Assembly: GCA_964016885.1 (NCBI GenBank)
Contig: OZ024741.1
Location: forward strand, 275,528,001-275,592,000
Direction: 5' to 3'
DNA: 64,000 bases
Origin: Eledone cirrhosa
Lineage: Eukaryota
In this document: positions 1 through 61,187 of the stretch, piece after piece
Layout of the letters: each line of letters begins with the position of its first letter
How positions within the stretch are numbered: the stretch's first letter is position 1
Program-made: the position numbers and the translations under genes
The notes under the pieces: generated by a model
Seen by the model: the letters and a program-made list of their open reading frames with translations, nothing else
Database searches by the model: none
What the model was told of the DNA's origin: nothing

Positions 1-3000
1 TGTTGGTAGTGACGGCAGTGGTGGTGTTGGTAGTGATGACAGTGGTGGTGTTGGTAGTGATGACAGTGGTGGTGTTGGTAGTGATGACAGTGGTGGTGTT
101 GGTAGTGACGGCAGTGGTGGTGTTGGTAGTGATGACAGTGGTGGTGCTGGTAGTGATGACAGTGGTGGTGTTGGTAGTGATGACAGTGGTGGTGTTGGTA
201 GTGACGGCAGTGGTGGTGTTGGTAGTGATGACAGTGGTGGTGTTGGTAGTGACGGCAGTGGTGGTGTTGGTAGTGATGACAGTGGTGGTGTTGGTAGTGA
301 TGGCAGTGGTGGTGTTGGTAGTGATGACAGTGGTGGTGTTGGTAGTGATGACAGTGGTGGTGTTGGTAGTGATGACAGTGGTGGTGTTGGTAGTGATGAC
401 AGTGGTGTTGTTGGTAGTGATGACAGTGGTGGTGTTGGTAGTGATGACAGTGGTGGTGTTGGTAGTGATGGCAGTGGTGGTGTTGGTAGTGATGGCAGTG
501 GTGGTGTTGGTAGTAATGACAGTGGTGGTGTTGGTAGTGATGACAGTGGTGGTGTTGGTAGTGATGACAGTGGTGGTGTTGGTAGTGATGGCAGTGGTGG
601 TGTTGGTAGTGATGGCAGTGGTGGTGTTGGTAGTGATGGCAGTGGTGGTGTTGGTAGTGATGACAGTGGTGGTGTTGGTAGTGATGACAGTGGTGGTGTT
701 GGTAGTGATGACAGTGGTGGTGTTGGTAGTGATGGCAGTGTGGTGTTGGTAGTGATGACAGTGGTGGTGTTGGTAGTGATGGCAGTGGTGGTGTTGGTAG
801 TGATGGCAGTGGTGGTGTTGGTAGTGATGGCAGTGGTGGTGTTGGTAGTGATGACAGTGGTGGTGTTGGTAGTGATGACAGTGGTGGTGTTGGTAGTGAT
901 GACAGTGGTGGTGTTGGTAGTGATGACAGTGGTGGTGTTGGTAGTGATGACAGTGGTGGTGTTGGTAGTGATGACAGTGGTGGTGTTGGTAGTGATGGCA
1001 GTGATGGTGTTGGTAGTGATGGCAGTGGTGGTGTTGGTAGTGGTGGTGTTGGTAGTGATGACAGTGATGGTGTTGGTAGTGATGGTAGTGGTGGTGTTGG
1101 TAGTGATGACAGTGATGGTGTTGGTAGTGATGGCAGTGGTGGTGTTGGTAGTGATGACAGTGGTAGTGATGGTGTTGGTAGTGATGACAGTGGTGGTGTT
1201 GGTAGTGATGACAGTGGTTGTGTTGGTAGTGGTGGTGTTGGTAGTGATGACAGTGGTGGTGTTGGTAGTGATGGCAGTGGTGGTGTTGGTAGTGATGACA
1301 GTGGTGGTGTTGGTAGTGATGACAGTGGTGGTGTTGGTAGTGATGGCAGTGGTGGTGTTGGTAGTGATGACAGTGGTGGTGTTGGTAGTGATGACAGTGG
1401 TGGTGTTGGTAGTGATGGTGTTGGTAGTGATGACAGTGGTGGTGTTAGTAGTGATGGTGTTGGTAGTGATGACAGTGGTGGTGTTGGTAGTGATGACAGT
1501 GGTGGTGTTGGTAGTGATGGCAGTGGTGGTGTTGGTAGTGATGACAGTGGTGGTGTTGGTAGTGATGACAGTGGTGGTGTTGGTAGTGATGACAGTGGTG
1601 GTGTTGGTAGTGATGGCAGTGGTGGTGTTGGTAGTGATGACAGTGATGGTGTTGGTAGTGATGGCAGTGGTGGTGTTGGTAGTGATGGCAGTGGTGGTGT
1701 TGGTAGTGATGACAGTGGTGGTGTTGGTAGTGATGACAGTGGTGGTGTTGGTAGTGATGACAGTGGTGGTGTTGGTAGTGGTGACAGTGGTGGTTTTGGT
1801 AGTGATGGCAGTGATAGTGTTGGTAGTGATGACAGTGGTGGTGTTGGTAGTGATGACAGTGGTGGTGTTGGTAGTGGTGACAGTGGTGGTGTTGGTAGTG
1901 ATGGCAGTGATAGTGTTGGTAGTGATGACAGTGGTGGTGTTGGTAGTGATGACAGTGGTGGTGTTGGTAGTGATGACAGTGGTGGTGTTGGTAGTGATGA
2001 CAGTGGTGGTGTTGGTAGTGATGGCAGTGGTGGTGTTGGTAGTGATGACAGTGGTGGTGTTGGTAGTGATGACAGTGGTGGTGTTGGTAGTGGTGACAGT
2101 GGTGGTGTTGGTAGTGGTGACAGTGGTGGTGTTGGTAGTGGTGGTGTTGGTAGTGATGGCAGTGGTGGTGTTGGTAGTGGTGACAGTGGTGGTGTTGGTA
2201 GTGATGGCAGTGGTGGTGTTGGTAGTGGTGGTGTTGGTAGTGATGGCAGTGGTGGTGTTGGTAGTGATGGCAGTGGTGGTGTTGGTAGTGATGGCAGTGG
2301 TGGTGTTGGTAGTGGTGGTGTTGGTAGTGATTGCAGTGGTGGTGTTGGTAGTGGTGGTGTTGGTAGTGATGGTAGTGGTGGTGTTGGTAGTGATGGCAGT
2401 GGTGGTGTTGGTAGTGATGACAGTGGTGGTGTTGGTAGTGATGGCAGTGGTGGTGTTGGTAGTGGTGACAGTGGTGGTGTTGGTAGTGATGACAGTGGTG
2501 GTGTTGGTAGTGATGGCGGTGGTGGTGTTGGTCGTGATGGCAGTGGTGGTGTTGGTAGTGATGACAGTGGTGGTGTTGGTAGTGACGGCAGTGGTGGTGT
2601 TGGTAGTGATGACAGTGGTGGTGTTGGTAGTGATGACAGTGGTGGTGTTGGTAGTGATGACAGTGGTGGTGTTGGTAGTGACGGCAGTGGTGGTGTTGGT
2701 AGTGATGACAGTGGTGGTGCTGGTAGTGATGACAGTGGTGGTGTTGGTAGTGATGACAGTGGTGGTGTTGGTAGTGACGGCAGTGGTGGTGTTGGTAGTG
2801 ATGACAGTGGTGGTGTTGGTAGTGACGGCAGTGGTGGTGTTGGTAGTGATGACAGTGGTGGTGTTGGTAGTGATGGCAGTGGTGGTGTTGGTAGTGATGA
2901 CAGTGGTGGTGTTGGTAGTGATGACAGTGGTGGTGTTGGTAGTGATGACAGTGGTGGTGTTGGTAGTGATGACAGTGGTGTTGTTGGTAGTGATGACAGT

Positions 3001-29020: not shown

Positions 29021-36118
<7,098 letters not shown>

Positions 36119-36884: not shown

Positions 36885-39800
36885 ATAGGTAAATATACAT
36901 GGGTGTGTATGATTGTGTATAGAAGATTATATTAATAAGAGGAATTCCAACTTTGTCTGATTTACTCGTTTTATTTACAATCCTTTAAAATATATATAAT
37001 ATGGTATTATAATGAAACAGTATGATAGAATATTAAATTCTAAGTGTTAATTGAACAAGTACTTTCATGCTTTCGCAATCTTCAGGTTCATGATATGTGG
37101 TGACAGTCGAGTTTGCAATTTTCAACTGTAATGAGATGGGTAAATTTACTACCTTTTATACATTTTATACAGAGAAAAGTGGCTCCAGAATGCAAAGCCC
37201 TGTAAACTGTATTTCGACCAATCAGTGTGTAGTTTCACTGAATTACTATAGCTGATTGGTTTAAGCGTCACGGCTGGTTGAGCATGCTAACGACCAATAG
37301 TCATACCCAACGTATCAATTGTTTTGCTTTTTGAAATGATGAAAATAGCATTTTCTATTAATCATCACCATCAACATCACTTTTATTATTATTATTATTG
37401 TTGTTGTTGTTGTTGTTAGTGGTCGTGGTCATAGTGGTAGTAGAAGTAATACCCCTAGGCGTTATTATTGTTCATTTAGCTTGGGTTTGAATTTATCAAT
37501 AAAATTCTTTTCTTTGATTTTTCTCTTGATTTCACTTGGGCTGTGTAATTTGTAGAATGGGAATATTATAAATATTCCCTGACCACATGTTGCCAGGTGG
37601 CCGCTTAGGGGTATCTGACGGACATTTGGGTCTCTGATTTGTTGACGGTGTACCCGTGCACGTTCCGATAGTGCATTTCCAGTTTGACCGACATATAGTT
37701 CTTCACAATTCGGGCATTTAATGCAGTAAATTAGATTTCTGCTTTTGCAGTTCATATTTGCATTTGGGAATATTTTTCCAGTTTTTGTTTTCATATATTG
37801 ACCGGCGTGTATGGATTGACATGTGCCGCATCGATTATCATTGCATTTAGATACAGTGAATGATTGGTCTTTGTTGTTAAGGTCAAACTTTGCTTTTGTT
37901 AGCAATTGCTTCAAATTTTTTGGCTGTCTTTTACTAAGAGTCAAAGATCGATCTGTGATTAAGCCTTTTAATTCATTACTTTGAGCAATGATCGGTAGGT
38001 TTGCTTTGGCAGTGTTGAAGATATTCTGGTGACATGGGTTGTGTGTCATTATAAATGGTATGACCAGTTCTTGGTTTCTTCTTCCTTGGGTTGTTCTAAG
38101 TTGTTGTATAGGTATTTTTATAGCCCGCTGTATGCCATTTTCTATAAGTAGAGATGGGTATTTTTGTTTGAGCAAAAATTCTCTTAGTTCTGTTAGGCGT
38201 TTGTACCTGGTATTCGTATCTTCTACAATGGTACAAATTCTTCTGGCTAGGCAGTATGGGATATTGCGTTTTGTATGAGGTGGATGGCACGACTTAAAAT
38301 TCAGATATTGATGGGTGTCTGTGTGTTTATAATATATATCCGTGGTAATGGTGGTGTCGTTTTTGATTATCATTATATCTAGGAATGGTAATTTGGTCCT
38401 ACTCATCTCTTTTGTGAATTGGAGAGATGGGTGTAGGTTATTCAGGAGGATATTGAACTCATCCAAAGTATCTAGAGATTCTGTCCAGATGATGAAACAG
38501 TCGTCAAGGTATCTCTTCCAAGATTTTTCAATGTACTTTCTAAAGTCAGTACTATATTTTTCCTCTATTTCTTGGTAGAGTTGTTGTTCTAAGTATCCCA
38601 TTACAGAGTTCGCGTAAACGGGAGCAAACTTCGTTCCCATCGCTGTGCCTCTAATTTGGATGTAATTCTTTCCATTGAAGAAGAAAGTGTTGTTTTCCAG
38701 AATAAGTTTAACTGCATCTAATATAAATGGCGCTGTGAATCTAATGGGAATCACTTCTCTGTTTTTCCACCCAGTATTTAACCGCCTTTATTCCTAAATC
38801 ATGTGTAATGTTGGTGTAAAGGCTTACCACATCAAAACTGAGTAGAAGTGAATTCGTTTCCGTGGTTTTGGGAAGATGGGACAGGAAGTCGATATCATCC
38901 CGGATGAAACTGGGTATGTGAATACATAGTGGTTTCAAAATAATGTCAACAAAATTGCTTAGACGGTGAGTGGGGCATGTTGGACCAGCTATAATAGGTC
39001 TAAGTTTTAAGTCTTTTGGGTGTAATAATTTAATGTACTCACTGTTTTGTTCTCTTACTGCCAGTTGTATTTCTTTTGATTTGTGAACTTTCGGTAGGCC
39101 ATACAGGTTGCTGGGTTTCGGCTCAAAATTGGTGATGTAGTCTCTTTCCTTATCAGTAAATGAGTTGTGGTATTTTGAAGCCAGGTTGTTGATCTTCTTC
39201 ATGATGTTGTGGTCTATATTTGACGGTATTTCATGATAGAATGTTGTGTCTTTCAGTTGTTCCTCAACCAAATCCTTGTAGTATTCAGTATCCATTATAA
39301 CAACTGCACCCCCTTTATCTGCTTGTTTAATTATTATTGTTTTATCATTTTGTATACGTTTAAGTGCAGACATTTCTGATTTGTTAATGTTTGGCCTAAC
39401 ATTAGTATTATGTCTAAGAGGAAATTTAGACAGGATGTCAATGTATTGGTCGAGATAGATATTTCTTCCTTTTGGCGGAGTGAAATTTGATTTATTCTTT
39501 ACTAGTGATTCATCACTCTCATTATTTTATCAGCGAAGAATTCTACAAGACGTAATTTTCGACAGAATTCTTGGGTATCCTCCTTCAGTTCTTGGTGGTT
39601 GACTGTTGGAGTCGGTGTGAATTTCAGTCCTTTTGACAGAATTTGCATTTCATCATTGTCAAGATCTCTTTTAGATAAATTAATTATTTTAGGATCTACG
39701 TGTACAGCTGTTTTGGGTATGTTTCCTCCTGGAGTTTTTCTTTTTCCGGTTTTTGTTGTCCTGACGTTAAAAAATGAATTTTTCTCTGTTCAGGATTTAT

Positions 39801-40106
39801 ATTCCTGTTGGTGTTCGCTTTATGAACTTTTGGTCGTGATATTATATTTGGTTTCGTTATGTATTTTGTCCTATTTTTGGTATTCTGTATATTATTTTTC
39901 TTGCTGTTAGCCTTATTTTTAACAATCTGGGAAAATGACCTAGGTTTGCTTTCAGGTTTAGATCGTTTTTTCGTCCAGTTTCTTGTGGGCAATCTCTGTT
40001 GAGATCTTGAGAGTGATCTGGTTATTCTACGTTTTGTTTCCACATTCCTTGTTGGTAGTCTCTGTTGAGATCTTGAGAATGATCTCCTGGTTTTACTACT
40101 TCTCAT
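36885..40106 (-). mobile_element. Penelope-like element (RT + C-terminal GIY-YIG, Neptune-like Cys linker), frameshifted
   Basis: IINLS...EMQILSKGLKFTPTP (manual, ~39610-39690). IKQADKGGAVVIMD, FDVVSLYTNI in 38741-39373. GTAMG, RYLDD, LPFLD, CxxxxCxxC, LIYCIKCPNCEELYVGQT, R...H in 37465-38754. HHR in 3' region. Confidence 0.95.
37052..37090 (-). ncRNA. Type I minimal hammerhead ribozyme in PLE 3' region (pseudo-LTR)
   Basis: Minus UGAAC-CUGAAGA-U UGC gaaa GCA U-GAA-AGUACU-U^GUUCA: stem I UGAAC/GUUCA, palindromic stem III AGUACU. Same strand as the PLE ORF. Confidence 0.88.
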
Positions 40107-40110
40107 ATAT

Positions 40111-44414: not shown

Positions 44415-49712
<5,298 letters not shown>

Positions 49713-53859: not shown

Positions 53860-53920
53860 CACCAACTTTTACGCTAAACTCTTCACTATATTCGTTGTTA
53901 ATTCTAACCTTGCTGACTAT
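53860..53920 (-). mobile_element. 60-bp RTE fragment, mirror image of 57033-57080
   Basis: [21 protein letters not shown]. Same 5' breakpoint as the plus-strand copy. Confidence 0.75.
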
Positions 53921-54321: not shown

Positions 54322-54811
54322 ATAAAATAAAATAAGATAAATAAATACATACACAAGCACAATAACAAGAAGCACATAAACACACACTAGTCACCCAGCA
54401 AACATAACACTATACACACTAGTCACACAGCAAACATAACACTATACACACAATCAAACGCATGCGCAAAGAAGACAAAATAAAATAAACAAACAAGCAA
54501 ATAAATAAATAAATATATAGATAGACTGAATAAAAATGGCATAGACATACAACACAACAGGAGGAAAATATAACACCACTGACGATGTTGCAGATGTGCA
54601 ACGAAAGATTTATGTAAACTATATATATGTGTTTGTCTATATTATATCTGTATTATTTTTGACCGTCGGTCAGTCAATGGCAACATTGAGGACCGAGTAA
54701 GTTAGATTACAGATATAAAAGACAGCGAGAAGCGAAAACCAACCAAACAGTGAGTGTGTTCTGTTATTAATTCTGGCAATATTATTACACAAATATGACC
54801 CTCCCAAGTAT

Positions 54812-54817
<6 letters not shown>
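54321..54817 (+). mobile_element. PLE 3' non-coding end (inverted paralogue of 55745-56270) with HHR-like motif at ~54572-54633
   Basis: Reverse complement of the UTR behind the GIY-YIG ORF at 56282-56578. CUGACGA-U GUUGCA gaug UGCAAC-GAAA core, weak stem I. Ends ...TGACCCTCCCAAGTATAACAA|(TA)n. Confidence 0.65.
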
Positions 54818-54860
<43 letters not shown>

Positions 54861-54867
<7 letters not shown>

Positions 54868-55703
54868 AATTTATATCTAGTAACATTTATATACTCACAG
54901 ATGCATATCAATGCTAGCAAATATATAGGTTTTGTCTTATTAACAATGTGGTTCAATGCATGGGGTTGCAGAACAATAATATGAGAGACGTAAAATAAGA
55001 AAATTATAAAATTAACTTACTTACTAAAAAATCACTTCCAACTAATTAGTTTCTGGAATGGAGTAAATATATTTTCCGAAGAAACATATAGAAAATCATT
55101 CCGTCATCAGGAAAGTCTTTTTCCGAATAGGTCTTCAGGCATAGCGAGGACACTGGAAACTTATTAAAAAAATAATTCAGTGGAATGGAAATAGCGAAGC
55201 GTGGACTGGATTCCAAGCCATTGAGAAAATCACTGCCTCTACGTCTGTGGCAAATTCAAAAAGAATCAATCACGTGACATCGAGGTCAATCAGTGGAAAG
55301 CGAGTGGTTATTAAGACAGCGGCCAGCTTACTACCATAGTAGCAGTCATGGCCAAATATTGCTCGACAAATGAATTGGAGATAATTATAAGGAATTTATA
55401 TCTAGTAACATTTATATACACACAGATGCATATCAATGCTAGCAAATATATAGGTTTTGTCTTATTAACAATGTGGTTCAATGCATGGGGTTGCAGAACA
55501 ATAATATGAATTATTTTTTTAATAAGTTTCCAGTGTCCTCGCTATGCCTGGAGACCTATACGGAAAAAGACTTTCCTGATGACGGAATGATTTTCAATAT
55601 GTTTCTTCGGAAAATATATTTACTCCATTCCAGAAACTAATTAGTTGGAAGTGATTTTTTAGTAAGTAAGTTAATTTTATAATTTTCTTATTTTACGTCT
55701 CTC
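54861..55703. mobile_element. Retrozyme-like element, 525-bp unit, head-to-head inverted: ~1.2 units minus (54861-55509) + ~0.4 unit plus (55507-55703)
   Basis: 54861-54984 repeats at 55386-55509. 55507-55703 is the reverse complement of ~54983-55179. HHR in each arm. (TA)n on both sides. Confidence 0.8.
55570..55652 (+). ncRNA. Type I hammerhead ribozyme with enlarged stem II (minus copy at 55034-55116)
   Basis: ACUUUC-CUGAUGA-C GGAAUG...CAUUCC A-GAA-ACUAAUUAGU-U^GGAAGU: 6-bp stem I, palindromic stem III, GUU triplet. Confidence 0.8.
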
Positions 55704-55744
<41 letters not shown>

Positions 55745-55749
<5 letters not shown>

Positions 55750-56611
55750 ATACTTGGGGAGGGTCATATTTGCGTAATATTGCCAGAATTAATAACAGAA
55801 CACACTCACTGTTTGGTTGGTTTTCGCTTCTCGCTGTCTTTTATATCTGCGATCTAACTTACTCGGTCCTCAATGTTGCCATTGACTGACCGACGGTCAA
55901 AAATAATACAGACACAATGTAGACACAAACACATATATATAGTTTACATAATTTACATAAATCTTTCGTTGCACATCTGCAACATCGTCAGTGGTGTTAT
56001 ATTTTTTCCTCCTGTTGTGTTGTATGTCTACGCCATTTTTTTTTATTCAGTCTGTCTATATATTTATTTATTTATTTGCTTGTTTGTTTATTTTATTTTG
56101 TCATCTTTGCGCATGTGTTTGGGTGTGTGTATAGTGTTATGTGTGCTGTGTGACTAGTGTGTATAGTGTTGTGTCTGCTGGGTGACTAGTGTGTGTTTAT
56201 GTGCTTGTTGTTATTGTGCTTGTGTATGTATTTATTTATCTTATTTTATTTTATTTTATTTTATTTTATTTATTTACTTATTTATACTTCTCTTAGGTCA
56301 GTGTTGTTTGTTTGGGTGTTGTTGTTGTTCCACTCATTCTTTCTGTTTAGCTTTGGTCTTCTAATTTCTATTTCACTGACCTCTCTGATTTGCCTATCTG
56401 CTGGGTCATTCCTATGTTTAGATATTATTCTAATTTCTATGTTGTCTATGTTACCGTCATGTTGTTGTCTAGCATGTTCGTATAGTACTGACCCGTTTTT
56501 TCGTCCTTTTAGTTCCCCCCAGTGTTGGTCTATCCTTTCACCTAGTATAACAATATCTGTTTCGACACACGATTTCATATAAAAAACCTCGCTAAACTAA
56601 TTCATCGCCGC
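55745..56611 (-). mobile_element. Second PLE family: GIY-YIG C-terminal remnant plus 3' UTR with HHR-like motif (~55928-55998)
   Basis: ORF 56282-56578 LGERIDQH...SVLYEHARQQH...RQIRE...PKLNRKNEW resembles the R..H/H/E/LN tail of PLE GIY-YIG domains. Confidence 0.7.
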
Positions 56612-57032: not shown

Positions 57033-58142
57033 ATAGTCAGCAAGGTTAGAATTAACAACGAATATAGTGAAGAGTTTAGCTCTGTTCTTAGCTCCCTACT
57101 ATTTATTATTGCCCTTCAGGCTATAACAGAGGAGTTCAAGACCGGCTGCCCATGGGAACTCCTATACGCAGATGATCTAACGCTCATAGCTGAATCAATG
57201 ACCGAACTAGAGAAGAAATTCCAAACATGGAAGCACGGCCTAGAATCAAAAGGCCTTAAAATTAACCTGGCTAAGACTAAAGTTCTAGTTTGTAGGAAAG
57301 AAAACAAGGCGGCGGTCCCTTCCGGGAAATGGCCATGCTCAGTGTGTAGGAAAGGCGTAGGTAGAAACTCCATTTTATGTCCCAAATGCAAAGTATGGGT
57401 GCATAAAAGATGTAGTGGGATCACAGGTAAGCTAACTAAGAACATAGATTTTACATGTGGCCGGTGCTCTGGTGCAATAAGTAGCAGCAAGTGCCCACAA
57501 AATACTAGCTCTTTTAATTGCGCAGAGGGTTCTATAGAAATAGTGAACAGCTTCCGTTACCTGGGTGACAATCAGCAGTGGGGGAGGGTGCTCTGAAAGT
57601 ACAGTAGCTAGAGTCAGAACTGGATGGAAAAAGTTCAGAGAGCTTATACCACTATTAGCCGCTAAAGGGTTCTCCCTAAAAATGAAAGGCAGGTTATACG
57701 ATGCCTGCATACGAACAGCAATGCTGCATGGCAGTGAGACCTGGGCATTGTGTGCAGAGGATATACGCAGACTAGAAAGAAACGAAGCTTGCATGCTCCG
57801 CTGGATGTGCAATAGTAATATACGTGAACGGCTAAGCATAAACGAACTAAGGAAAAAATTAGAAATAAGAGGGATCAGATGTTGTTTACTCGAGAGAAGG
57901 CTACGTTGATACGGTCACGTGATGCGCATGAAAGACGACAGCTGTATAACAAAGTGCAGGGCAATAAAGATAGACGGTAGCCACGGAGTAGGCAGACCCA
58001 GACAAACCTGGGACGACATGATAAATTCCGACCTCACACGCTTACACCTCTCCAAGACAATGTCACTGGACCGAGACCTTTGGCGGTACTCAGTAATAGA
58101 GAAGACCCGCCTTACCTAAATACAAAGTAAAACCTACTACAG
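57033..58142 (+). mobile_element. RTE family A LINE fragment (RT YADD to C-terminus), frameshift and stop
   Basis: [39 protein letters not shown]. Runs into the gap. Confidence 0.93.
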
Positions 58143-58342
58143 NNNNNNNNNNNNNNNNNNNNNNNNNNNNNNNNNNNNNNNNNNNNNNNNNNNNNNNNNN
58201 NNNNNNNNNNNNNNNNNNNNNNNNNNNNNNNNNNNNNNNNNNNNNNNNNNNNNNNNNNNNNNNNNNNNNNNNNNNNNNNNNNNNNNNNNNNNNNNNNNNN
58301 NNNNNNNNNNNNNNNNNNNNNNNNNNNNNNNNNNNNNNNNNN
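58143..58342. other. Assembly gap (200 N)
   Basis: Run of n. Confidence 1.
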
Positions 58343-58351
58343 GGAATCCCC

Positions 58352-58396
58352 AGTCACTGAAGAGGTCACAGAGTGTGTGACGAAAGGACTATGACT
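58352..58396 (+). ncRNA. Type I minimal hammerhead ribozyme in a probable PLE 3' end (58343-58559)
   Basis: AGUCA-CUGAAGA-G GUCACA gagug UGUGAC-GAA-AG ga CU-A^UGACU. Segment ends TGACCCTCCCAAAGTATAACAA|(TA)n, like ~54797-54816. Confidence 0.8.
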
Positions 58397-58558
58397 ATAT
58401 ATAAGCAACTATCTGGTTGTGGAACCAACCAACCAACCAGAAATTTATAAGTTTGTAAATTTGTAAATTTATAAATTTATAAATATATAATAAATTGAAG
58501 TGAAAGCAACTGGTGCGTGTGTTTCTTATTGGCAACATGACCCTCCCAAAGTATAACA

Positions 58559-59628: not shown

Positions 59629-61187
59629 ACAATATATTTAGAAACACACAGATACATGCGGACACACACATATATACATGAATGCATCCGCACCCAACTG
59701 TGAGTTAAGGGTGCCAACTTCACCGATGTTGCTCAATGAGTGACCGGGACAGACCAATTCAGTTGAACTAGACTGAACCAGTATCAGAGTTAAAAATACA
59801 TTATGAAGAGAGAAGAAACATTTAGATATAATTAGTAATAAAATGTATCATACCTAAACTGCTCCTAAATTCCTCGACTACGTAGTTTCGTGGCATAAAC
59901 AAAAACAATATATCATAAAGATATAGAGTCCCTGCGAGGTCTGCCGACTTATCAAGAGGATACCTCATTTTACTAGTCTCAAGAACGCGTCTACACGACG
60001 TGAGAAAGAATCCCAAAAGGCGGAGGGGGAGATAGTCACGCGCTATAACGGTCGAGAAACAGAGCTAAGCCTCTTATAACCACGAAGAAAATACCACGGA
60101 GGCGGAGGGGGTATTCATATCGAGGCCGCAGAAGAGGTGGTGAAGAAGGCGAGAAGTATGAGTAATGGAAGCTTTCCAGTTGTCCCCACACTTCAAAGAT
60201 TGCTCGACCAGAGGGAGTTATTAACAATATATTTAGAAGCACACAGATACATGCGGACACACACATATATACATGAATGCATCCGCACCCAACTGTGAGT
60301 TAAGGGTGCCAACTTCACCGATGTTGCTCAATGAATGACCGGGACAGACCAATTCAGTTGAACTCCGCCTTTTGGGATTCTTTCTCACGTCGTGTAGACG
60401 CGTTCTTGAGACTAGTAAAATGAGGTATCCTCTTGATAAGTCGGCAGACCTCGCAGGGACTCTATATCTTTATGATATATTGTTTTTGTTTATGCCACGA
60501 AACTACGTAGTCGAGGAATTTAGGAGCAGTTTAGGTATGATACATTTTATTACTAATTATATCTAAATGTTTCTTCTCTCTTCATAATGTATTTTTAACT
60601 CTGATACTGGTTCAGTCTAGTTCAACTGAATTGGTCTGTCCCGGTCATTCATTGAGCAACATCGGTGAAGTTGGCACCCTTAACTCACAGTTGGGTGCGG
60701 ATGCATTCATGTATATATGTGTGTGTCCGCATGTATCTGTGTGTTTCTAAATATATTGTTAATAACTCCCTCTGGTCGAGCAATCTTTGAAGTGTGGGGA
60801 CAACTGGAAAGCTTCCATTACTCATACTTCTAGCCTTCTTCACCACCTCTTCTGCGGCCTCGATATGAATACCCCCTCCGCCTCCGTGGTATTTTCTTCG
60901 TGGTTATAAGAGGCTTAGCTCTGTTTCTCGACCGTTATATCGCGTGACTATCTCCCCCTCCGCCTTTTGGGATTCTTTCTCACGTCGTGTAGACGCGTTC
61001 TTGAGACTAGTAAAATGAGGTATCCTCTTGATAAGTCGGCAGACCTCGCAGGGACTCTATATCTTTATGATATATTGTTTTTGTTTATGCCACGAAACTA
61101 CGTAGTCGAGGAATTTAGGAGCAGTTTAGGTATGATACATTTTATTACTAATTATATCTAAATGTTTCTTCTCTCTTCATAATGTAT
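59629..61187. mobile_element. Retrozyme-like element, 595-bp unit, head-to-head inverted: ~1.2 units minus (59629-60364) + ~1.4 units plus (60363-61187)
   Basis: 595-bp period (59629/60224; 60372/60967). Strand flip at ...gttgaaCTccgcc... Three HHR copies. (TA)n flanks. Confidence 0.83.
60428..60517 (+). ncRNA. Variant (U3-A8) type I hammerhead ribozyme with enlarged stem II (copies 61023-61112 plus, 59871-59960 minus)
   Basis: UCCUC-UUGAUAA-GU c GGCA...UGCC AC-GAA-ACUACGUAGU-C^GAGGA: stem I UCCUC/GAGGA, palindromic stem III, GUC triplet, compensatory C3G8 to U3A8 change. Confidence 0.78.

What the first reader, a model, noticed from the sequence alone, without database searches (positions are those of the whole stretch)
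54861..55703. Hidden 525-bp HHR element repeating the same head-to-head architecture
Seen: order A-B-C-A followed by inverted B, HHR sense outward on both sides, TGA microhomology at 55507-55509, left 3' end merging into (TA)n via UAUA. The arms differ by several substitutions (ctgaagacctattcgg vs ctggagacctatacgg), which argues against a read fold-back artefact. Inference: an independent, older instance of the same mechanism, or use of two different RNA templates.
Basis: partly seen in the sequence, partly recalled or inferred. Interest (0 to 1): 0.7.

Follow-up and report, generated by a model that had tools for sequence, protein, structure and literature searches.

The report
Inverted hammerhead-ribozyme retroelement in TA repeat
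This is a small non-coding mobile element with a hammerhead-ribozyme motif, of a kind already known to depend on Penelope-like retrotransposons, and its breakpoints suggest it was copied in from both strands of a TA repeat at once using one long RNA.

Summary
A 525-bp non-coding unit sits in (TA)n as a 649-bp partial tandem on the minus strand plus a 197-bp inverted piece, joined at TGA. Each arm has an outward type I hammerhead motif with a palindromic stem III. It is best read as a non-LTR retrozyme, a non-autonomous Penelope-like element (PLE). Partial tandem plus inverted truncated copy, (TA)n targeting and opposite-strand hammerhead pairs are all published PLE features. The new detail is the junction arithmetic: the right arm ends at unit position 403 and the left arm starts at 402-405, so the arms split one continuous 1.6-unit RNA. 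A neighbouring 595-bp family shows a similar register (26-nt gap) and cannot be a fold-back; the 485-bp array does not fit (155-nt gap). Cleavage is untested, the motif lacks the canonical G10.1-C11.1 closure, and no other copy of the unit was found. Verdict: new member of a known kind.

The parts
54861..55509 (-). Left arm, 649 bp = 1.24 units of the 525-bp monomer (unit positions 402/405-525, then 1-525); 3' end at the (TA)n
54861..54984 (-). Segment A, 3'-terminal copy
   Evidence: 123 of 124 identical to 55386-55509
55386..55509 (-). Segment A, upstream copy (partial tandem, equivalent to a pseudo-LTR)
55180..55385 (-). Segment C, single copy, unit positions 1-206; holds a short motif at 55353-55367 shared with the 595-bp family just past the 3' register
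   Evidence: 14 of 15 nt match, 0 of 1000 shuffles
55507..55703 (+). Right arm, inverted 5'-truncated piece, unit positions 207-403; 3' end at the (TA)n
55507..55509 (.). Head-to-head junction, 3-nt microhomology TGA
55034..55116 (-). Type I hammerhead motif: stem I 6 bp, CUGAUGA, stem II 6 bp with a C.A opposition at its base and an inner UUCG-loop hairpin, GAAA, 10-nt palindromic stem III, predicted cut after GUU at 55040
   Evidence: activity not tested
55570..55652 (+). Second copy of the hammerhead motif, predicted cut after 55646
54944..54958 (-). 15-nt motif identical in the 485-bp family, about 80-100 nt before the 3' end; candidate cis signal (inference)
   Evidence: 10 of 1000 shuffles reached the score
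54818..54864 (.). Pure (TA)n, left half of the target; last 4 nt shared with the element
55705..55745 (.). Pure (TA)n, right half of the target
54322..54817 (+). Left flank: 3' UTR of a Penelope-like element with a degenerate hammerhead-like motif near 54574-54630 (seen by eye, not passed by my scans), ending at the (TA)n
   Evidence: mirror of the right flank, 16 substitutions in 477 aligned nt and 6 indel events
55746..56611 (-). Right flank: 3' end of the same Penelope-like element, with the C-terminal part of a GIY-YIG endonuclease at 56282-56596
   Evidence: 27 relatives, best E 2.5e-15; 11 of 27 score GIY-YIG at E up to 0.1, 2 above cut-off; one relative carries an upstream YVDD RT motif
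53860..53917 (-). Outer end of the left mirrored flank: LINE RT fragment
   Evidence: 45 of 45 nt identical to 57036-57080 inverted, same junction to the impure (TA)n, no third copy in the window
57036..57080 (+). Outer end of the right mirrored flank: start of a longer LINE RT remnant

Best explanation
The 525-bp unit is a non-autonomous Penelope-type retroelement (non-LTR retrozyme) and this copy was made by twin priming on one RNA. Shown: the anatomy, the motif, the (TA)n target and the breakpoints. Inferred steps: (1) a tandem source array elsewhere was transcribed into a multimer of at least 1.6 units that spanned two hammerhead sites uncut; (2) a PLE RT/GIY-YIG protein acting in trans nicked both strands of a (TA)n tract; (3) one 3'-OH primed at the unit's usual 3' register (position 525, UAUA), the other primed internally at position about 404 (AUAU), 57 nt past the ribozyme site; (4) the first cDNA ran 649 nt until it met the second primer, the second ran 197 nt, and the two ends were joined at TGA. 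With one hammerhead per strand this copy cannot release a monomer and is probably a dead end. The mirrored flanks are most likely an older local inverted duplication into whose central (TA)n the element inserted. I put the class assignment at about 0.85 and single-template twin priming at about 0.65.
For: Right arm ends at unit 403, left arm starts at 402 (405 if the TGA is given to the right arm); a uniform start would fall within 3 nt of that point 7 of 525 times. The 595-bp element has a 26-nt gap, and its right arm (825 nt) exceeds the 397 nt a fold-back could copy. In 3 of 3 inverted insertions the left 3' end sits at a unit register and the right 3' end lies 57, 82 and 80 nt past the predicted cut, at a TA-like microhomology. 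All 3 junctions have 2-3 nt microhomology. Five different palindromic-stem-III hammerhead motifs in the window keep stem I paired with different sequences; one is in the 3' UTR of a PLE and one has the U3-A8 core. Literature: PLE insertions often are partial tandems with an adjacent inverted 5'-truncated copy, with (TA)n bias in some clades (PMC8557442); a purified PLE protein nicks and extends both strands, starts internally at two sites, and needs no ribozyme cleavage (PMC11167929); dual hammerheads 100-700 bp apart on opposite strands are known PLE remnants (PMC4209133); twin priming defined for L1 (PMC2837659).
Against: One insertion of this family only; the 1.3% figure is post hoc. The 485-bp array does not fit (155-nt gap, 5' ends 16 nt apart). 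For this insertion a fold-back is geometrically possible (197 of 319 nt available). No significant similarity of the unit's last 200 nt to any of 4 PLE 3' ends in the window (best 21 of 500 shuffles), so the mobilising partner is unidentified. The studied PLE protein primes without homology to the target, whereas here 3-4 nt microhomology is seen. The motif lacks the adjacent G10.1-C11.1 pair that PMC4209133 calls highly conserved, has a GUU triplet and escapes Rfam. The mirrored flanks are not explained by twin priming and their greater age is not significant (p=0.07 for substitutions, 0.09 for indels).
Confidence: 0.62

Rival explanations
1. Dual priming: two separate RNA molecules of the same family were copied, one from each nicked strand.
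For: Three internal substitutions between the B copies. The right 3' end looks like a preferred start site in 3 of 3 families, which a second RNA could use. The 485 array shows no register.
Against: It leaves the abutting ends (403 | 402-405) to a chance of about 7 in 525. B is no more diverged than A (p=1.0).
Confidence: 0.15
2. Self-priming fold-back: the first cDNA folded back at TGA/TCA over a 330-nt loop and copied its own B segment, then joined the target (the model proposed for PLE head-to-head junctions in PMC3846280).
For: Geometry allows it here (197 of 319 nt). The 485 junction has its two 5' ends only 16 nt apart, like the 15-bp overlap described in that paper.
Against: Only 3 nt of pairing and a long loop. 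It does not explain why copying stopped at 403. It is impossible for the 595 element (825 vs 397 nt) and, as assembled, for the 485 array (2736 vs 2360 nt).
Confidence: 0.1
3. One event made both the inverted arm and the 1.0-1.4 kb mirrored flanks: either a DNA-level inverted duplication followed by loss of A from the right arm, or priming of both cDNAs from the same flank on two sister chromatids.
For: Three layers are mirrored around the element (LINE fragment, impure (TA)n, PLE 3' end); the LINE fragment is 45 of 45 identical with a shared junction; inner and outer divergence do not differ significantly.
Against: Outer copies differ by 3.4% with 6 indel events and lack about 330 bp on the left, against 1.2% and no indel inside. 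The impure (TA)n tracts are no more alike than unrelated tracts. The 485 array has the same internal start site but its flanks are not mirrored. The deletion version needs the same 1.3% coincidence.
Confidence: 0.11
4. Sequencing or assembly fold-back artefact, or a chance motif.
For: Repeat-dense scaffold with an N gap at 58143-58342; no Rfam hit.
Against: Asymmetric arms, substitutions but no indels inside, a diverged outer mirror with large indels, microhomology junctions, and 0 of 5000 shuffles with such a motif.
Confidence: 0.02

Closest known systems
Metazoan non-LTR retrozymes (Cervera and de la Pena 2020, PMC7229834; Li et al. 2026, bioRxiv 10.64898/2026.07.22.740005)
   Same: Non-coding, GC 35%, type I hammerhead, tandem organisation, co-occurring with PLEs.
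   Different: Monomer of 525 nt is above the 170-400 nt of the 2020 paper but inside the 51-972 bp of the 2026 preprint. Only 1.24 tandem units. The word 'inverted' does not occur in the 2020 main text, and 'retrozyme' with 'head-to-head' found 0 papers.
Penelope-like element insertions with direct and inverted pseudo-LTRs (Craig et al. 2021, PMC8557442; Arkhipova et al. 2013, PMC3846280)
   Same: Partial tandem plus adjacent inverted 5'-truncated copy, head-to-head, in (TA)n, hammerhead in the repeated part.
   Different: No RT/EN ORF; the two 3' ends are 122 nt apart in the unit rather than a 30-40 bp tail; the junction is not a short palindrome.
PLE hammerheads with palindromic helix III (Cervera and de la Pena 2014, PMC4209133)
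   Same: Type I topology, long helix II, palindromic helix III suited to dimer formation, an extra base after A9, pairs on opposite strands 100-700 bp apart.
   Different: An extra A before G12 breaks the G10.1-C11.1 closure; GUU triplet; a 10-nt palindrome, longer than the minimal forms.
L1 twin priming (Ostertag and Kazazian 2001, seen only as a reference-list entry; described in Meyer et al. 2010, PMC2837659)
   Same: Two inverted fragments of one RNA, 3' ends outward, abutting in RNA coordinates, microhomology at the inner junction.
   Different: Different enzyme (inferred PLE RT with GIY-YIG nickase), tandem multimer as template, no poly(A), and a target duplication cannot be read in (TA)n.

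Membership tests
Non-LTR retrozyme | Type I hammerhead motif | tested here: met
   Core boxes, stems I-III; 0 of 5000 shuffles as good. Rfam does not score it.
Non-LTR retrozyme | Tandem repeat of a few hundred bp | tested here: inconclusive
   Period 525 shown by one 124-bp direct repeat only; related units in the window form arrays of 5-6 copies.
Non-LTR retrozyme | Non-coding, GC below 45-50% | tested here: met
   GC 0.349; 7 stop-to-stop frames of 41-76 aa scanned, 0 Pfam matches above cut-off, 1 at E 0.068; no tRNA gene.
Non-LTR retrozyme | Active copy: two consecutive units with a complete hammerhead (criterion of Li et al. 2026) | tested here: not met
   One motif per strand; criterion read.
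Non-LTR retrozyme | Self-cleavage; linear and circular monomer RNA in cells | not testable with these tools
   Needs assay and RNA data. Computed only: hammerhead fold 2.5 kcal/mol above the monomer minimum; dimer favoured by about 10 kcal/mol.
Non-LTR retrozyme | Many dispersed genomic copies | not testable with these tools
   None in the window; none in phages, plasmids or prokaryotic genomes; no eukaryotic genome collection was available.
Non-autonomous Penelope-like element | Partial tandem with adjacent inverted 5'-truncated copy | tested here: met
   against PMC8557442
Non-autonomous Penelope-like element | Insertion into a simple repeat such as (TA)n | tested here: met
   Pure (TA)n of 47 and 41 nt on the two sides
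Non-autonomous Penelope-like element | Sequence similarity to the pseudo-LTR of an autonomous PLE | tested here: inconclusive
   None with the 4 PLE-type 3' ends in the window (21-400 of 500 shuffles scored as well); other PLE families of the host not available.
Non-autonomous Penelope-like element | Optional 30-40 bp tail at one end | tested here: not met
   The two 3' ends differ by 122 nt in the unit.
PLE-type hammerhead | Palindromic helix III | tested here: met
   Perfect 10-nt palindrome
PLE-type hammerhead | G10.1-C11.1 pair closing helix II | tested here: not met
   C and A oppose each other at the base of helix II in both copies. Two other motifs in the window have U.U there, as does an active axolotl motif.
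Autonomous PLE | RT plus GIY-YIG ORF | tested here: not met
   No such ORF in 54861-55703
Twin-primed insertion | Inverted and direct fragments abut in RNA coordinates, with inner microhomology | tested here: met
   Gap -2 nt, TGA microhomology
Twin-primed insertion | Target-site duplication | not testable with these tools
   Cannot be read inside a pure (TA)n tract

The most novel reading that the evidence does not exclude
These retrozymes carry two built-in start sites 106-167 nt apart, so that a PLE protein primes both strands of (TA)n on one uncut multimer and head-to-head insertion is programmed rather than accidental; and in this copy both primers came from the same flank on two sister chromatids, so the ribozyme element itself created the 1.0-1.4 kb inverted duplication around it. 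The first half alone I put near 0.4; both together are much less likely.
Probability: 0.1. Interest if true: 0.72.

Novelty: new member of a known kind. Interest (0 to 1): 0.4.

Why it matters
How Penelope-like elements form their tandem and inverted insertions is stated as open in PMC8557442, and PMC3846280 proposed self-priming. Short retrozyme units record both priming sites and both stop points in a few hundred bases, so a simple genome-wide count of end-to-start gaps could separate twin priming, dual priming and fold-back. The insertion also spans two predicted ribozyme sites uncut, which fits the in vitro result that unprocessed RNA is the substrate, though a re-ligated circle is not excluded. 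The element class and the layout themselves are known.

Tried and rejected
Rfam at gathering score and at E up to 10: no hammerhead; the microRNA matches are (TA)n hairpins and were rejected. Monomer folding of the motif is not better than shuffles. Whole-unit folding is better than 100 of 100 shuffles (z -3.97), but the antisense strand is also better than 40 of 40 (z -2.35), so it says little about strand. Other copies: none in phages, plasmids or prokaryotic genomes (one exact 23-nt pattern). A MITE or foldback DNA transposon reading of the outer inverted repeat was rejected because it encodes the end of a GIY-YIG PLE ORF; the first protein search for it, limited to longer proteins, found nothing, Pfam did not match the fragment itself, and the Atlas gave only a 17% GIY-YIG lead. 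A partner PLE could not be assigned by end similarity; the low shuffle counts of the 480 and 595 units with flank PLE ends are TA-rich matches and were discounted. A three-way global alignment of the 525, 485 and 595 units was too poor to use. Two values (525 right 5' start, 595 left 5' start) were wrong through a failed anchor and were replaced. Interruption patterns of the two impure (TA)n tracts did not support the mirror. The host was not determined.

Full report
Context. The window is a eukaryotic repeat cluster: a 20-kb 24-bp satellite, then LINE and PLE remnants separated by (TA)n tracts. A frameshifted PLE ORF at about 37465-39789 (-) matches Pfam GIY-YIG (E 1.8e-6) and weakly RVT_1; its best named relatives are from bivalve molluscs at 55-58% identity, the top unnamed ones 64%. 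The host was not determined; a mollusc is a guess from those hits.

Anatomy. A (54861-54984) recurs at 55386-55509 with one substitution, which gives the 525-bp period; B recurs inverted at 55507-55707. The sense strand, defined by the ribozyme motif, is minus on the left and plus on the right, so both 3' ends face pure (TA)n tracts of 47 and 41 nt and the 5' ends meet at TGA. Three B substitutions are internal and none touches the core boxes or stems I and III; the fourth is at the junction with the target. The unit is 35% GC and 7 scanned frames gave no Pfam match above cut-off.

The motif. My descriptor finds type I hammerheads at 55116-55034 and 55570-55652. Of 5000 shuffles, 14 gave a relaxed match and none a match of this quality. 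The window holds five distinct motifs with a palindromic stem III: in the 525 unit (2 copies), the 485 array (11), the 595 element (3, U3-A8 core), the 480 array (6) and the 3' UTR of the PLE at 37090-37052 (1). Stem I stays paired in all five with different sequences. These features match PLE hammerheads, including the U3-A8 variant and opposite-strand pairs 100-700 bp apart (PMC4209133, parts 1-2 of 4 read). Against activity: no adjacent G10.1-C11.1 pair, a GUU triplet, no Rfam hit and a monomer that prefers another fold by 2.5 kcal/mol. Pairing through the palindrome favours a dimer by about 10 kcal/mol, though the computed dimer is not the active fold. In one study 8 of 9 predicted retrozyme dimers did not cleave in vitro, so activity cannot be assumed.

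Class. Tandem non-coding units with type I hammerheads are non-LTR retrozymes (PMC7229834, passages), proposed to be non-autonomous PLE derivatives with units of 51-972 bp (bioRxiv 10.64898/2026.07.22.740005, parts 1-3 of 5). A partial tandem with an adjacent inverted 5'-truncated copy is the typical PLE layout, and (TA)n bias is reported for Naiad and Hydra clades (PMC8557442, passages and sections 11 and 15; PMC3846280, passages). The 525 unit is distantly related to its neighbours (0 of 300 shuffles for 595, 6 of 300 for 485) but not detectably to the PLE ends in the window, so the partner is unknown.

Mechanism. With unit position 1 at 55385, the left arm is 402/405-525 then 1-525, and the right arm is 207-403. 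Together they tile one RNA of 1.6 units with its 5' part flipped: the twin-priming signature described for L1 (PMC2837659, passages). A uniform left start would land within 3 nt of the right end 7 times in 525; this is one post hoc case. The 595 element has a 26-nt gap and a right arm too long for fold-back (825 vs 397 nt); the 485 array has a 155-nt gap and 5' ends 16 nt apart, so 2 of 3 insertions fit. In all three the right arm ends 57-82 nt past the predicted cut at a TA-like stretch, which suggests a preferred second start; the 525 unit has 10 clusters of such 4-mers. A purified PLE protein nicks and extends both strands at AT-rich DNA, starts at two internal RNA sites and uses uncut RNA (PMC11167929, parts 1-2 of 4), which makes the model plausible; that protein primes without homology, which differs from the short microhomologies here. 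Substitution counts cannot separate one template from two (p=1.0).

The mirrored flanks. Beyond both (TA)n tracts lie inverted copies of a PLE 3' end (91.5% over 589 columns). The right copy encodes the end of a GIY-YIG domain: 27 relatives, 11 of 27 scoring GIY-YIG, with a Cys-rich linker and in one case an RT motif upstream. Further out a 45-nt LINE fragment is identical on both sides with the same junction. The outer copies differ by 16 of 477 plus 6 indel events against 4 of 321 and none inside (p=0.07 and 0.09). An older duplication is likelier, but a single event is not excluded.

Novelty. Searches: 'twin priming' with 'Penelope' gave 3 papers, none on PLE mechanism by title; one was opened and held the term only in its references. 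'Retrozyme' with 'head-to-head' gave 0. Broader searches led to the papers above; an octopus repeat annotation does not use the word ribozyme (passages). The library omits most subscription journals and I read no supplements. The class and layout are known; the family and the reading of its breakpoints as twin priming appear not to be in that library. Verdict: real, new member of a known kind, modest interest (0.4) because it offers a cheap test of an open mechanistic question.

Noticed in passing
window 59629-61187: A 595-bp family in the same head-to-head layout with a U3-A8 variant hammerhead core (3 copies); gap 26 nt, fold-back impossible.
   Followed up: yes
window 44492-49601: 485-bp head-to-head array with 11 canonical hammerhead motifs, very young (4 substitutions in 5111 nt); its junction looks like a short fold-back yet the right arm is longer than the left, possibly an assembly copy-number error.
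   Followed up: partly
window 31044-34108: 480-bp tandem array, 6 hammerhead motifs on the minus strand, no inverted arm; the unit contains its own short (TA)n, where the array begins.
   Followed up: partly
window 36888-40110: Frameshifted Penelope-like element (RT plus C-terminal GIY-YIG, Cys-rich linker) ending at (TA)n, with a small hammerhead motif at 37090-37052 in its 3' UTR.
   Followed up: partly
window 58343-58558: After the N gap, another 3' end resembling the flanking PLE's terminus, with a hammerhead-like motif at 58352-58396.
   Followed up: no
window 56545-56557 and 55745-55757: The right flanking PLE copy has the same 13-mer at its 3' terminus and, inverted, near its 5' end, where the ORF stops resembling its relatives; unexplained, seen by eye.
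   Followed up: no
window 57080-57081: The right LINE remnant appears to lack about 8 codons that the left 58-nt mirror fragment partly retains, suggesting a deletion after duplication.
   Followed up: partly
window 1-20160: 20-kb satellite of a 24-bp G/T-rich unit with extreme GC skew (0.83); the transposon cluster lies right beside it.
   Followed up: no
window 54983-55703: A read-through transcript would form a hairpin with 195 of 197 B positions paired, a possible source of double-stranded RNA.
   Followed up: partly
window 31044-61187: In all three inverted insertions, the 480 array and the long PLE, the arm with the standard 3' end is on the minus strand; small numbers, may be chance.
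   Followed up: no
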